Virus record (IMG/VR): IMGVR_UViG_2529293069_000011
Source of the DNA: a virus
Taxonomy: Duplodnaviria; Heunggongvirae; Uroviricota; Caudoviricetes
Direction: 5' to 3' (one strand)
Length of the DNA stretch: 34,435 nt
Made by a program: the position numbers. How positions within the stretch are numbered: the first letter of the stretch is position 1; each line of letters starts with the position of its first letter. Positions 6,001 through 12,000 of this stretch are shown piece after piece.

Positions 6001-9000
6001 TGTTGTTTCAGTGCATACCCAAGCTGTTTCGGCATTTCCGCAGCAATGATGTGGTCGCGGGCATCTTCAAATGCCTGTGTCAGCGGTCCGGACAGCGGGA
6101 TTTTCACCACATCAATGGGGTAACGATTTTTGCCATCAATACGTCGCATCACATGCCAGCGACCATTCGCCAGTTGCTGAATAAACGCATCCCGGAAAAG
6201 ATATTTACCCACCTTCAGCACACTGCCACGGTACTGCAGTTTTCCACCACGCCGGGCCAGTCTGACCCGGGCTGTCCCCAGCTTAATGGCGGGCAGATTG
6301 CCCCGGTTAACGCGGATCCTGGCCGTCATTTTTCCTGACGGACTGGCTTTAAACACCCGGACACGCTGACGTACCAGTTTCAGGGGGATCCCTTTCACCT
6401 GGTTATCTCCCGCAACGGTATTCCCGGCAACCTGCCGGGTGGCAACCGAGACCGCTTTCTGTGCCAAACGGTTTATCGCCCATGCGCTGGCCTGTGGCAC
6501 CATACGGGTATCAAGGCTGTTCAGATTGCGGATGGCATTCTCAAGCCCCTTCATCCCACACCTCTTTACTCAATAAAGATCATTGGCTTACTGTTAAAAC
6601 GTTCATGCCGTGTGACCGTCCATTGTTGTCCGTCATAAACAACGCGATCCCCGCGCCGTGGGCGGTATCCCGAAGAAAACACCACCAGAGAGACCGCAGG
6701 TCCGGACAGAGCATTCAGCTCTGCCAGTGTTTCTCCCGGGATCACAGTCATATCGACATCATTAATCGAGGCTGTCTTTCCCATCTTTCTGACCGTGATC
6801 GCATCCATACGCGCTGCCAGCCGGGAAAAGGGATCAGACATTGAGTTTTACCGGCACTTCTTCTGCACTGGTTCCGGCATCTGCCCATACAACCCCGACC
6901 AGCGGATCAGAGCCGCTGTTAGTCAGCTGAACTTTTCCTGACTTCAGATAAACCTTCTTACCCGTTTTCATGTCATCCGTTTTCAGCTTAGGCAGCATAA
7001 ACACACCTTCGGTTATGCCGTCGCCTGTTTCTCCCTGTGGAATATCGGTCAGCGCCACCGCAAAAACATCACCCACCTGCACCAGATCTCCGCTGCTGAT
7101 GGCTGCACTGGCAACAATCGCCACCGTTTTTCCTTCTTCTACAAAATTCTTTGCCATAACTGTCTCCGCACAGCCCCGTTCAGGGGCTGATTTCAGGTAC
7201 AAAAAAAGCCCTTACGGGCCATCAGAGTTGTTGTCTGCGACGTTTACGCCGTACATTTCACCAGGCCGCGGTGATCAACTGGCGCAACACCAGCGTCAAT
7301 ACGCACTTTCGTTGTCACGCCATCCACACTGAAGCCCTCCATCTGATCAATATATGGCGTATCCACACCGTTGAGATAAGCCACTTCAATCGTATCGGAG
7401 CCTTTGGACGCAGCCAGGTAGAAGGTGGTCTGGCTGTTATCATCAAGACGAGGCTCTGCAATAACGGTCGCAAAATCTTTCACCGGGTTAATAATACCGG
7501 CGTTAATGTCAGCCCCCTTGACACTTGAGGAGCGAATGACCTGGTTAGCAACAGACTCCATCGCCGTCGGTACCAGTACGAACGCAGGACGAATATTCAG
7601 ATGACGCTCACCCTCTTTCTGAACGCGCATCAACTGGCGGGCTTTATCCAGCGATGCCACGTCCATTGCCGCGCTCTCCAGTACGTTTGCATGTTTCGCT
7701 TTATCGAACAGACTTACATTATCTGTGGAGATTTTCGGGTTAGACGTCAGAATGGCATAAACCAGATCGGCAATAGTGGATTTCGCCGCACGGCCCAGCT
7801 TCATCGGGACATCGGTCAGCATATTCAGATCATCATTGATAATGGCCTGACGGGTGATACTGAACAGCTCGCCATAGGTCGCCAGTGCAATAGTGGCCTG
7901 TTTATCTCCGGTGGTGACGTATTTATATTCTGCCCCTTCACGCACCTGACGCAGAGCACTGAAGCCCCCCATACCCACACGATGGGCAATTTTAAAATCA
8001 GACAACTGACCTTTCCGCGTCCACTGTTCATAGGTTTCAGGGGCATCTTCCCAGCCCTGCAGAATGGCTTTGTTCGCAACATCCAGCAGAATATTACCGA
8101 AGTCAGACGTACTGTGTGTGAACGCCGCACCGACCATCTGCATCGGGTTATAACTGGAAACACCAATACCACGTTCAGTCAGTGACATACGGGCATATTC
8201 ACGCAGGGTCATCCCGTTGTAGACATTATCACGTTCAGTTTTTTCAAACCCGGCGCGCGCCATCAGCGCCTGGCGGATCCCGTCCCCCACAAAATTACCG
8301 TTACCGGCATAAATATGAGCCGGGGTATTTTTATTGGATGGCGTGGACTCGCGCCCCATCTCGTTCAACAGCTTTTCGCGGGCCTGCTCCAGCGAACATT
8401 CAGGATCGGCAAGACACTGAGCCTGCAACGACTGATAACGCCCGCCAAACATGGCAAACAGATCATTAATACCGTTTACACGCGCTTTTTGCTCTGCCAG
8501 GACCTGCGCACGGATGCTGTTTTCATCCACCACGGGTGCTGCTGCCTGCACTGGTGTCCGGGAGGCTGCAGGTCCATCATCCTGTACGCGTGGAGCACTG
8601 TTGCGTGGCGGAGTAATCATATTTCGAATGGATTCCGGCATCTTTTTAAATTCCTCTGTACGTTTTGACTGAATACATGCCATTGCCTTAACGGCTGGTG
8701 TCACCTGATCAGCAAATCCCTGTGCCAGACATTCGGCACCGGACATCCAGGTCTCATCCGCCAGCATGGCAGCAATTTCATCTGTGGTTTTCCCGGTTTT
8801 CTGCGCATAAGCGGGTAACAGAACCGCCTCAACTTTATCGAGCAGGTCGGCATAGGTGCGCATGTCCTCCGCATCACCGCCCGTAAAGCCAAATGGTTTA
8901 TGAATCATCATGAAGGAGTTTTCCGGCATAATGACCGGGTTTCCCACCATCGCAATGACCGACGCCATTGACGCCGCCACACCGTCGACATAAACGGTAA

Positions 9001-12000
9001 TGGACGCACCATGTGTTTTCAGTGCATTAAAAATGGCGATGCCTTCAAAGACATCGCCACCCGGTGAATTAATATGGAGATTAATGTGGGTGATATCGCC
9101 CAGTGCATTCAGATCACTGATAAACTGCTTCGCCGTAACACCCCAGAAACCAATCTCGTCATAAATATAAATATCCGCGTCACTCTGGTGACCTGCCTGC
9201 ATCCTGAACCAGGAATTATTCTTCGGACTGGTCGTCGGTGTGCTGCGGCTCCTGTCGTTTCGTTGCGGCACTGCTGCCTCCTTTATCACTGGCCGGATCG
9301 GTATCAAATACCAGATCCAGCTTGCGGTTTTCATCAATTTCGGCCTTGCGCCGACGTTTGACATCATCTGGATTACGACCACCTGCACGTACCCAGTCTG
9401 ATTCTGTCGCCGCTCCACCACGAATCTGAATTTTCCAGGCCTCAGCCTCCTTAACAGGGTCAATCCACGGCATCACCGGTCCGGAATACACCGCGGTATA
9501 CAGTGAAGATCGGTCCAGATCGCGGGGTAGCCTGATAACACCGGATACCACAGCCTGTTTCAGCCAGGCACGGTACATCGGGCGGGTGACGGCACCAATA
9601 AACCAGTCCTGCAGGATCAGGTAGCCATCAGTAGATTCAACCAGCTCCTGACGCTGGGCGCTGTAGGTGCCGTTATAGTTGCGCGCTGTACTGGAAAAAC
9701 TCAGACGACTGCCCGCAGCCACGGCACGCAACTGACCATTACGAAAAGTTTCAAGGTTAGGATTGGGGCGATCCGACTTCACCATTCCGATTTCTTCGCC
9801 GGGTTTCAGATCGTCGTAAATAATGCCTGGCTGAATGGTAAGCTCGCGTTCATTCTCCTTGCTGTCATTACCATCCGTTTCATAGCTCTGTCCGTCGCCT
9901 TTCCGGATGTACATCCCCAGAGCAGCGGCGATCCTTGCTGCAGTCAGCTCAGAATCTTCATACTCTTTCAGAGCACTGAGGCGGATCAGCACACCGGACA
10001 ACAAAGACGTCCCGCGCATCTGGTGCAGACGGCGAACAAATTTAAGATGCAGCATTCGCTCTGCATCCACTTCTTTGGTTTCCATCTGCCGCCCGGATAC
10101 GGGACGGCTTTTATACACCAGATATTTTTCGGGACGCCCCCAGTCATCAACAAACACGCCCTGATTCAGCCTGTTGCTCTCATCACTGGTCATGGGAATA
10201 AAGTCCGGCTCGAGCGCCTCCAGCCAGAAATGAACACCGGCAGAAGGCGTCAGGCTGTTTATGCGCCCGGAAACCATCTGGGCAAACACCTCACCATCGC
10301 GCAGCCAGGTACGCAGCATCAGACGTTCCAGCATCGGACGGGTAAACTGCCCGGTGACCTCCGGACTGACAGACCATTCACTCCATCGGGTACGTATCTC
10401 CGCTGCCAGATCACGGGCAATGGCCCCATTGCGTAATACCGGATGTGGCTCGACAATAATCCCGTTTTTCCCCACCACCCGTTCTTCCAGCTTGTCAAAT
10501 ACACCAATGACCAGATCGTGGTTGTTATCAAGGTAACGAGCCTGCTCACGTAACGACACGGCCCCGTACTGGCTTAACTGGTCGGCAGTTCGGTTCTCCC
10601 GTCGGGCTTTGTGTGTCCGCGTCGTTTTTACGGCCTCATAAGCCTGGATCACCGCACGGGAACGCAGCCTTGCCGCTTTCCATCCTGGTGAAAAAACGCC
10701 AATCACATCATCAAGAATTGCCATCAGAACCTCGCCAGCCGGTACCCGGGATGCCCCCGTCGTCGTGTAATCAGAGCCGCAAGGCGGCGCTCCCACTCCT
10801 GCCGCCCCTGCCGGATCTCAGATAAGTTTTCCATGGTCATCTGCTGACCATTAAAGGTGACGGATTTTCCGTCCAGCACCGCCATTTCAGCTTCCGTATA
10901 ACGCTGAATCATGGCTTCGATATCATTCTGATTCATAACCATCCTCCGGAAGTCAGCCAGGGGTTAACATCGTCAGTTACTGTTTTCTTCCGTTTTTGTT
11001 TTTTAACAGGCGTGGATACCGGTTCCGGTGAGGGTGACGGTTCGGTACTGTCCGGGACACTCTCCAGCCAGGTTTCCCGGCTCGCCCACCCCGGTGCATC
11101 CGGCCAGCGGATCTTTTCGTATCCATGCAGAATGACCAGAGCCTCGGCATACACCATCAGGTCAAAAGCTTCGTTGGCACCGCGACCCGGCTTACTCCAT
11201 TTCCCGTCACTGCTCCGCTCTTCATACGTCAGTTCGTCGTAAAACCAGCTCCCCAGCCAGTCAGGGAAATGCACATAGCCGGGACCTGGAGAGTCACGCC
11301 ATAACGCGTTATTCACCCGGTCTTTCAGTGCATCCGTCTGAAGAAGCCAGAGCGGCACATCACCTGCGGCCTGCGCCCGTCGGCCCGTTCGTCCGGTGTT
11401 ATCAGGGAATGTACGGGTGATCAGTTTTGCGCGCCGGATGCTGTCGCCCTTAAACAGGTAAATACGTTTACCAAGGCCATCACGACGGCAACGACGCCAG
11501 AATTTATAGGCATTATCAGTGACCCCGTCTTCACCGCCGGAGTCCACCGCCATTGCCATCAGTCGCATTTGTTGAGAAGGATCGGAGGCCAGCGGCCAGC
11601 TTTTATGAAAAACATCCGTCAGCAGGACATCCCAGTCTTCCGGATAGCTGGCCGGATCAATTCGCTGGCTCTCACCGTCGCTGTCACCGCGCAATGACTG
11701 CGTGATGTTGTAACGATCAATAATCCAGCGTTCGCCACGGCTGCCATAGCCCGTTACCTGAACCACAAAACGGCGATGACGTCCCGCCTGCACATCCACT
11801 GTCGCCACAAGGAAATTAACGCCATCCGGCACACTGCTGGAAGGAACTGGCTCTGCCCGCTGCTCAAGCAGTTCACTTTTTCGTTGCTCCATGCTGGCGC
11901 GGGGAAGATAAGGTAATCCCCAGTCGGTATTGATAACCGTCTTGAGTGTTTCTTCACTTCCGGTTGTCTCGTATTCCTGTTCTGCAGTAAGCAGTTTGTA

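What the first reader, a model, noticed from the sequence alone, without database searches (positions are those of the whole stretch)
7244..9202. Single ORF combining ClpP-type prohead protease with the capsid region
Instead of separate lambda C, Nu3, D and E genes, one ~652-aa ORF carries an N-terminal ClpP-like protease (candidate catalytic Ser in GVAASMAS and His in MIHKP) and a long C-terminal region in the capsid slot. No other major capsid candidate exists between portal and tail genes. This suggests a self-processing protease-scaffold-capsid polyprotein, i.e. a head module distinct from lambda's joined to a lambda-type tail module.
Basis: partly seen in the sequence, partly recalled or inferred. 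Interest (0 to 1): 0.45.

Follow-up and report, generated by a model that had tools for sequence, protein, structure and literature searches.

The report
Fused protease-scaffold-capsid gene, Gifsy-2 type
This is a real but already known and very common phage gene that encodes the head-maturation protease, a scaffold segment and the capsid shell protein as one chain. The one possibly new point is a conserved internal start signal that may let the phage also make the capsid part without the protease.

Summary
On the minus strand, 7244-9202 is an open 652-codon frame. Its N-terminal part is a ClpP-type serine protease (Pfam 4.6e-36) whose Ser78 and His101 align with the ClpP catalytic residues. 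Its C-terminal part is a capsid protein (Pfam Phage_capsid_4, 6e-55).

A high-confidence AlphaFold model of residues 226-652 (pLDDT 93.8) matches only HK97-fold capsid and encapsulin proteins. No other capsid gene lies between the portal and tail genes.

The gene is already known:
- It scores 984 bits (cutoff 475) on NCBIfam NF045540, [quoted passage not shown].
- It is 99-100% identical in DNA to phage mEp460.
- It is present in 2125 of 5426 complete E. coli genomes.
- It is 70% identical in protein to the Gifsy-2 "tripartite capsid gene" studied by Effantin et al. in 2010.

- The likely start is GTG 9271, giving 675 aa.
- A separate decoration gene exists at 6834-7157.
- Terminase and portal are lambda-family.

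One addition: an in-frame ATG at 8641 sits exactly at the protease/linker junction. It has a GAGGA Shine-Dalgarno-like motif in unusually unstructured RNA. The same feature occurs in 57 of 62 divergent fusion genes against 53 of 390 control windows. This suggests a nested scaffold-capsid product, as in lambda C/Nu3. That reading is inferred, not shown.

The parts
7244..9271 (-). Whole gene as most likely translated: 675 codons from GTG 9271 plus the stop at 7244-7246, about 73.4 kDa. It encodes a protease-linker-scaffold-capsid polyprotein.
   Evidence: ORF. Strong SD at GTG 9271. NCBI 675-aa models. NF045540 at 984 bits. Mass.
7244..9202 (-). Residue numbers in this report use this numbering; add 23 for the 675-aa form.
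   Evidence: mEp460 is annotated from this ATG. The ATG has a weak SD (-2.2) and is not conserved as Met in Gifsy-2 or MD8.
8699..9136 (-). ClpP-type (peptidase S14-like) head-maturation protease domain, aa 23-168. The domain as a whole spans about aa 1-187 (8642-9202).
   Evidence: Pfam CLP_protease 4.6e-36. NCBIfam NF045542 'head maturation protease, ClpP-related' 1.3e-64. Solved ClpP chains at E down to 8e-16.
8969..8971 (-). Codon of the candidate catalytic Ser78 (GVAASMAS).
   Evidence: Aligns with the GxAASMG serine motif of ClpP. Conserved in the consensus of 141 diverse homologues. Position.
8900..8902 (-). Codon of the candidate catalytic His101 (MIHKP).
   Evidence: Aligns with the MIHQP histidine motif of ClpP. 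Conserved in the consensus. Position.
8639..8656 (-). Candidate internal translation start: GAGGA (8652-8656), an 11-nt spacer, then ATG 8639-8641 (Met188). It lies exactly at the protease/linker junction and would give a 465-aa, 50.6-kDa scaffold-capsid protein.
   Evidence: SD duplex -6.0. The -30..+30 RNA folds at -1.6 kcal/mol against a mean of -14.8 for other in-frame ATGs. GAGGA (CAGGAG in Pseudomonas MD8) is kept in all 22 distinct nucleotide contexts. The feature is enriched in 57/62 divergent genes against 53/390 control windows. Use of this start is inferred.
8528..8617 (-). Pro/Ala/Thr/Gln-rich flexible linker, about aa 196-225. It varies in length and sequence among relatives.
Evidence: Sequences, alignment.
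8144..8527 (-). Helical scaffold-like region, aa 226-353. It has helices at 227-250, 257-265 and 271-284, a lower-confidence loop at 285-303, and helices at 304-317 and 333-342 leading into the capsid fold. It is comparable in position to the HK97 delta domain plus N-arm.
   Evidence: AlphaFold model, pLDDT 93.8, mapped. The region is shared with U35-type fusions (NF045541 matches aa 197-649). The scaffold role and the cleavage site are inferred.
7247..8143 (-). HK97-fold major capsid protein domain, aa 354-652, about 32.4 kDa.
7207..7220 (-). Terminator-like hairpin plus T-run immediately after the capsid gene.
   Evidence: A rho-independent terminator is annotated at the same place in mEp460.
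6834..7157 (-). Separate head decoration/cement gene (107 aa from ATG 7157). It is the functional counterpart of lambda D.
   Evidence: Pfam Phage_cement_2 4.3e-20. PHROG 122 'head decoration' 8.9e-47, matching from aa 16 of the longer ORF. A PF09956 gene follows the capsid gene in distant relatives too.
9216..10796 (-). Lambda-family portal gene (context). Its 3' end overlaps the likely start of the fusion gene by 56 nt.
   Evidence: Pfam Phage_portal_2 5.6e-82. Stop at 9216-9218.

Best explanation
The gene is a Gifsy-2-type 'tripartite' head gene of an mEp460-like lambdoid coliphage. One reading frame encodes four parts in order:
- a ClpP-fold serine protease
- a flexible Pro/Ala-rich linker
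- a helical scaffold-like segment
- an HK97-fold major capsid protein

Likely mechanism, by homology with Gifsy-2, HK97 and lambda. The capsid domains assemble with the lambda-family portal into a T=7 procapsid, with the scaffold and protease parts pointing inward. The protease then removes itself and the scaffold part, leaving a capsid protein of roughly 32-38 kDa. The shell expands on DNA packaging and is stabilised by the separately encoded cement protein.

Shown here:
- the domain content
- the conserved Ser/His motifs
- the HK97 fold
- the absence of another capsid gene
- membership of the curated fusion family
- 70% identity and shared gene order with Gifsy-2

Inferred:
- self-processing
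- the cleavage site
- capsid geometry

Also inferred, at about 0.6 likelihood: the conserved internal start at ATG 8641 yields a protease-less scaffold-capsid chain. Full-length chains would then be only the protease-carrying fraction of subunits.
For: - Domains: Pfam CLP_protease and Phage_capsid_4. NCBIfam NF045540 at 984 bits against a 475 cutoff, over the full length. PHROG 133 over the full length.
- Protease: alignment to solved ClpP chains with Ser and His in register.
- Identity: 99.2-99.8% DNA identity to phage mEp460 and 98% to cdtI, Ayreon and HannyBb. RefSeq gives the same name in 2125 of 5426 E. coli genomes.
- Gifsy-2: 70% identity over 669 aa and the same gene order. The fused Gifsy-2 protease and coat genes are cited in PMC12315714. 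Its trimeric decoration protein is cited in PMC8538268.
- The same reading was reached independently for the 57%-identical MD8 gp5 (PMC8508860).
- Breadth: 10,633 clusters at 50% identity match the scaffold-capsid part, and most top hits are 620-790 aa fusions.
- Internal start.
Against: - No protein-level data exist for this phage. Processing, the mature N-terminus and capsid geometry are carried over from Gifsy-2, whose paper could not be read here.
- The position of ClpP's catalytic Asp aligns with Glu150, next to Asp149, so the third catalytic residue is unclear.
- The internal SD in this window is only moderate (GAGGA, -6.0 kcal/mol, 11-nt spacing) and much weaker than the one at GTG 9271 (-11.6). 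The ratio of the two products cannot be predicted.
- The representative genes used for the statistics are related by descent. The Fisher and Wilcoxon values overstate independence.
Confidence: 0.9

Rival explanations
1. Pure polyprotein. Only the full-length 73-kDa chain is made, so every one of the roughly 415 capsid subunits brings its own protease and scaffold into the procapsid. The junction ATG and GAGGA would be a side effect of coding for acidic residues followed by Met, or a relic of an ancestral separate gene.
For: - The upstream start has a far stronger SD than the internal one.
- The internal spacing of 11 nt is longer than optimal.
- No stand-alone scaffold-capsid genes were confirmed. 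The 400-470 aa 'unfused' database entries turned out to be contig-end truncations or a frameshift.
- By my own estimate, about 15 MDa of internal protein would still fit in a T=7 shell.
Against: - An ATG with an SD-like motif is found at the junction in 57 of 62 divergent representatives, against 53 of 390 same-size control windows in the same genes.
- This holds across two unrelated protease types.
- Several relatives carry textbook AAGGAG motifs at 6-9 nt.
- The site lies in locally unstructured RNA in 51 of 61 genes.
- A relic would not be expected to survive at 28-45% protein identity.
Confidence: 0.3
2. The ORF is only a protease/scaffold gene, as several GenBank records label it, and the capsid protein is encoded elsewhere.
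For: Record annotations such as 'head maturation protease', 'putative protease/scaffold protein' and 'head-tail preconnector protein Nu3'.
Against: - The C-terminal 300 residues have the HK97 fold and match capsid families.
- All neighbouring ORFs have other assignments.
- Other records, and NCBI's curated model, call it the major capsid protein.
Confidence: 0.01
3. The fusion is an artefact: a frameshift, assembly error or decayed prophage joined two originally separate genes.
For: Some database entries do join this gene to terminase, portal or tail domains, which looks like mis-assembly or mis-calling.
Against: - The same uninterrupted frame is present in isolated, plaque-forming phages (mEp460, cdtI, Ayreon, HannyBb) and in 1988 E. 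coli genomes at 80% or more coverage.
- It is also found in Gifsy-2, MD8 and thousands of diverged clusters.
Confidence: 0.01

Closest known systems
Salmonella phage Gifsy-2 'tripartite capsid gene' (STM1034.3n / NC_010393 22471-24561; Effantin et al., Virology 2010, PMID 20427067)
   Same: It has a ClpP-like protease, a middle segment and the capsid protein in one ORF. It is 70% identical over 669 aa. The gene order is the same: small and large terminase, W-like gene, lambda-family portal, fusion gene, cement gene, then lambda-type tail genes Z, U, V, G, T, H. The junction 'EEFEHMPQS' with its ATG and SD (-8.8) is also present.
   Different: It infects a different host genus and is 30% diverged. 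The linker differs in length and sequence. The structural data (T=7 capsid, gpD-like trimers) exist for Gifsy-2 only. I cite them from memory of the abstract and from citing papers, because the paper itself could not be read.
NCBIfam NF045540 scaf_prot_MCP1, 'ClpP-like prohead protease/major capsid protein fusion protein' (includes phage mEp460 gp05, cdtI, and many E. coli, Shigella and Salmonella prophages)
   Same: Full-length match at 984 bits against a 475 cutoff. DNA is 99-100% identical to mEp460 and to many E. coli chromosomes.
   Different: None of substance. The window gene is an ordinary member.
NCBIfam NF045541 scaf_prot_MCP2: fusions of an HK97-type (U35/S78) prohead protease to the same capsid family (e.g. 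Pseudoalteromonas phage B8b, Ralstonia phage YO194_2)
   Same: The linker, scaffold and capsid part is homologous (399 bits over aa 197-649; 28-32% identity). The junction ATG and SD are also present.
   Different: The protease domain is of an unrelated fold family, so the score falls below that family's cutoff of 525 bits. Among 112 long cluster representatives, 81 carry the ClpP type and 29 the U35 type.
Lambda C/Nu3 (also Mu I/Z and herpesvirus UL26/UL26.5): a protease-scaffold gene with a nested, separately initiated scaffold product
   Same: The protease sits at the N-terminus of an assembly protein that may also be made without it from an in-frame internal start. The general logic is described for herpesviruses in PMC11565193. 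C/Nu3 is cited in PMC8508860.
   Different: In lambda the capsid protein E is a separate gene, and lambda gpC is not a Pfam CLP_protease member as far as I know. Here the nested product would be scaffold plus capsid. Its existence is inferred from sequence only.
HK97 gp4/gp5 (protease gene followed by a capsid gene with an N-terminal delta domain)
   Different: The HK97 protease is a separate gene of another family. HK97 cross-links its shell rather than using a cement protein, whereas this phage has a cement gene.

Membership tests
NCBIfam NF045540 ClpP-like prohead protease/major capsid protein fusion | Whole-protein HMM score above the curated cutoff with end-to-end coverage | tested here: met
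   984 bits against a 475 cutoff; protein aa 9-651 on profile positions 2-651 of 652.
ClpP-fold (peptidase S14-like) phage head maturation protease | Sequence membership of the Clp protease family | tested here: met
   Pfam PF00574 at 124.8 bits against a 20.2 cutoff. NF045542 at 217 bits against a 120 cutoff.
ClpP-fold (peptidase S14-like) phage head maturation protease | Catalytic Ser and His in register with ClpP | tested here: met
   GVAASMAS aligns with GMAASMG and MMIHKP with YMIHQP in the alignments to 1y7o and 6hwm. Both are kept in the consensus of 141 diverse homologues.
ClpP-fold (peptidase S14-like) phage head maturation protease | Third catalytic residue (Asp of the ClpP triad) | tested here: inconclusive
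   The ClpP 'RDN W' Asp aligns with Glu150 of 'DETW', and Asp149 is adjacent. The 'ETW' is conserved.
ClpP-fold (peptidase S14-like) phage head maturation protease | Proteolytic activity on scaffold and capsid precursor | not testable with these tools
   Needs biochemistry or genetics.
HK97-fold major capsid protein | Predicted structure with the HK97 fold (A and P domains, spine helix, E-loop) | tested here: met
HK97-fold major capsid protein | Being the only capsid-type gene in the head-gene slot | tested here: met
   Pfam assignments of all ORFs between the portal and tail tube genes.
Gifsy-2-type head module | Homologous fusion gene with the same flanking genes | tested here: met
   70% identity. 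Gene order in NC_010393 compared with the window and mEp460.
Gifsy-2-type head module | T=7 capsid decorated with trimers at threefold positions; processed capsid protein | not testable with these tools
   Known for Gifsy-2 only (cited). A cement gene is present here.
Nested protease/scaffold genes (lambda C/Nu3 type) | In-frame internal start codon with a ribosome-binding site at the protease/scaffold boundary | tested here: met
   ATG 8641 with GAGGA and open RNA. Conserved and enriched across 62 representatives.
Nested protease/scaffold genes (lambda C/Nu3 type) | Two protein products actually made from the one frame | not testable with these tools
   Needs proteomics, ribosome profiling or toeprinting.
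NCBIfam NF045541 (U35-type protease/capsid fusion) | Whole-protein score above cutoff | tested here: not met
   399 bits against a 525 cutoff. Only aa 197-649 match, and the protease part does not.

The most novel reading that the evidence does not exclude
The 'single polyprotein' would actually be a nested pair of genes. A conserved internal ribosome-binding site and ATG (window 8639-8656, Met188) would produce a 50.6-kDa scaffold-capsid chain, the equivalent of HK97 gp5. The full-length 73-kDa chain would then be a capsid subunit that carries the protease into the procapsid, presumably in the minority. This would extend the lambda C/Nu3 and herpesvirus UL26/UL26.5 principle to a case where the carrier is the capsid protein itself. 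It would apply to thousands of phage lineages with either a ClpP-type or an HK97-type protease. I could not establish whether this has been reported, because the Gifsy-2 paper and a 2026 HFTV1 ribosome-profiling preprint were not readable.
Probability: 0.55. Interest if true: 0.5.

Novelty: already known. Interest (0 to 1): 0.28.

Why it matters
As given, the finding matters little. It correctly recognises a head-gene arrangement that was characterised in Gifsy-2 in 2010, has a curated NCBI family, and is found in about 39% of complete E. coli genomes.

It is a useful reminder that many GenBank records still label this gene only 'protease', 'scaffold' or 'Nu3', and so hide the capsid gene.

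The internal-start signal is the part worth a bench test. If it is used, it explains how a phage that fuses protease to capsid protein avoids putting one protease on every one of about 415 subunits. It would also show that the 'protease rides in on a fraction of the assembly protein' solution recurs in yet another gene layout.

Tried and rejected
1. The first structure prediction used 26 close homologues and gave pLDDT 40, which was unusable. A 141-sequence alignment of 50%-identity cluster representatives fixed this.
2. I looked for stand-alone scaffold-capsid genes that begin at the junction Met (P0177, P0185, P0195, P0212, P0251). All proved to be contig-end truncations or, for P0177, a frameshifted copy. 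They are not evidence of separate genes, though gene callers do pick the junction ATG as a start.
3. At the protein level, presence of a Met within 65 residues of the protease end (102/110) is uninformative. Chance alone gives about 73% by my estimate. Only the DNA-level tests carry weight.
4. I considered a -1 frameshift at the 'TTT AAA AAG' just before ATG 8641. The A-run is not conserved among relatives (GAA CAT, GAT TCT, GCC CAC), so I rejected it.
5. The decoration protein has no sequence relative among solved structures.
6. Literature that could not be read: Effantin 2010, Duda 2013, Liu and Mushegian 2004, the Casjens and Hendrix review, and the 2026 HFTV1 ribosome-profiling preprint. 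The HFTV1 cryo-EM paper says nothing about a fusion.

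
Full report
**What is there.**
The feature lies on the minus strand. The plus-strand translation of 7244-9202 is full of stops.

Pfam places a Clp protease domain at aa 23-168 (E 4.6e-36) and a capsid domain (Phage_capsid_4) at aa 354-649 (E 6e-55), with a weaker Mu gpT match. The ClpP aspartate aligns with Glu150 of a conserved 'ETW'.

The neighbouring genes, all on the minus strand, are as follows:
- a DUF1441 small-terminase-like gene
- a gpA-family large terminase
- a lambda-family portal (9216-10796)
- the fusion gene
- a cement/decoration gene
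- a Gifsy-2-family head-tail gene
- gpZ, gpU and gpV

No other capsid candidate exists in the slot.

**Start codon.**
The best ribosome-binding site by far is AAGGAGG, 5 nt before GTG 9271. Its duplex energy is -11.6 kcal/mol against -2.2 for ATG 9202. NCBI's models of the identical protein are 675 aa long and start there.

The gene is therefore most likely 7244-9271 (675 aa, 73.4 kDa). It overlaps the end of the portal gene by 56 nt.

**Test of the capsid fold.**
A first model from 26 close homologues failed, with pLDDT 40. A scan of 1.84 billion cluster representatives with aa 226-652 found 10,633 clusters at E<=1e-3 and 2,756 at E<=1e-30. Most of the best hits are 620-790 aa long, with the match starting at about residue 230-300, so most are fusions too.

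The model shows three helices (aa 227-284), a lower-confidence loop (285-303) and further helices before the core fold. This is the expected place for a scaffold or delta-like segment and an N-arm.

**What it is called and how common it is.**
The DNA is 99.2-99.8% identical to phage mEp460 and about 98% to cdtI, Ayreon, HannyBb and others. Those records variously call the gene protease, scaffold, Nu3 or major capsid protein.

NCBIfam NF045540, 'ClpP-like prohead protease/major capsid protein fusion protein', matches end to end at 984 bits against a 475 cutoff. PHROG 133 also matches over the full length. RefSeq annotates the same gene under that name in 2125 of 5426 complete E. coli genomes.

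The Gifsy-2 gene (NC_010393 22471-24561) is 70% identical over 669 aa and sits in the same gene order. Its fused protease and coat genes (Effantin et al. 2010) are cited for relatives of this phage in PMC12315714. Its trimeric decoration protein is cited in PMC8538268. The authors of the MD8 genome paper reached the same three-in-one reading for a 57%-identical protein (PMC8508860). The finding is therefore correct and already known.

**Corrections to the interpretation.**
- A decoration/cement gene follows as a separate gene (6834-7157; PF09956, PHROG 122). A PF09956 gene also follows the capsid gene in distant relatives.
- Terminase and portal are lambda-family. The mosaic joint therefore lies inside the head region, not between head and tail.

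**A second family with another protease.**
The linker, scaffold and capsid part (aa 197-649) also matches NF045541, in which an HK97-type (U35) protease replaces the ClpP-type one. Phages B8b and YO194_2 are examples. Among 112 long cluster representatives, 81 have a ClpP-type and 29 a U35-type N-terminus.

**The internal start signal.**
Met188 (ATG 8641-8639) lies exactly between the protease domain and the linker ('EEFKK|MPESIRN'). It is preceded by GAGGA at 8656-8652. Three lines of sequence evidence suggest a translation initiation site.

1. *Conservation.* All 21 distinct enterobacterial nucleotide contexts keep GAG-GA(A/G/C) while neighbouring synonymous sites vary. The one Pseudomonas (MD8) context has CAGGAG instead. 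MD8, YO194_2 and B8b also have an in-frame ATG with an SD-like motif at the junction.
2. *Enrichment.* In 29 diverse representatives, mostly U35-type, 26 have an in-frame ATG with an SD duplex of -5.5 kcal/mol or better in the 75-codon junction window. Only 19 of 177 equal-size control windows in the same genes do (Fisher 9e-18). In an independent set of 33 ClpP-type representatives the figures are 31 of 33 against 34 of 213 (6e-19). Several of these carry textbook AAGGAG motifs at 6-9 nt.
3. *RNA structure.* The junction ATG sits in less structured RNA than other in-frame ATGs in 23 of 28 and 28 of 33 genes (Wilcoxon 1e-4 and 6e-7). In this window the -30..+30 segment folds at -1.6 kcal/mol with 35% GC. 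Other in-frame ATGs average -14.8, and GTG 9271 gives -12.1.

Caveats:
- The representatives are related by descent, so these are not true probabilities.
- Acidic residues before the Met contribute to the purine-rich motif.
- The spacing here is a long 11 nt.
- No stand-alone scaffold-capsid gene was confirmed.

I rate actual use of this start at roughly 0.55-0.6. If it is used, the gene works like lambda C/Nu3 or herpesvirus UL26/UL26.5 (PMC11565193), with the capsid protein itself as the carrier. A 50.6-kDa scaffold-capsid chain would build the shell, and 73-kDa chains would bring in the protease.

**Verdict.**
Novelty is 'already known'. Interest is low for the finding as given. The only item worth following up is the conserved internal start, and I could not find out whether it has already been reported.

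Noticed in passing
window 7207-7220 (minus strand): A GC-rich hairpin followed by a T-run sits directly after the capsid gene and before the decoration gene. mEp460 annotates a rho-independent terminator at the same place. It may lower expression of the genes downstream of the capsid gene.
   Followed up: partly
window 9216-9271: The likely GTG start of the fusion gene lies 56 nt inside the 3' end of the portal gene, in another frame. mEp460 and several other phage records annotate the shorter ATG 9202 start instead.
   Followed up: partly
window 8753-8758 (codons Asp149-Glu150): The position of ClpP's catalytic Asp aligns with a conserved Glu ('ETW') rather than Asp. The phage ClpP-like proteases may use Ser-His-Glu or a dyad.
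   Followed up: no
L168 1604-1927, L169 1500-1856, L170 1602-1943; window 6834-7157: A PF09956 cement gene immediately follows the fusion capsid gene in distant metagenomic relatives as well. The capsid and cement genes travel as a pair.
   Followed up: partly
L003 1927-3981 (phage B8b), L002 2329-4422 (phage YO194_2), L085-L164: The same linker-scaffold-capsid module is fused to an HK97-type (U35) protease in many marine and soil phages. The protease domain has been exchanged in front of a conserved capsid module, with 81 ClpP-type and 29 U35-type among 112 representatives.
   Followed up: partly
database proteins P0006, P0033, P0061, P0079, P0129: Some database entries join this capsid gene in one 'protein' with terminase, portal, tail protein L or tail-fibre domains. 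These are probably mis-assemblies, rearranged prophages or mis-called ORFs.
   Followed up: no
L166 2411-4386: In one bacterial genome (GCA_000755365.1) the protease and capsid parts are called as two genes. The upstream in-frame sequence still reads like the family junction, and the protease stop is in another frame. This is most likely a frameshifted, decaying prophage copy.
   Followed up: partly
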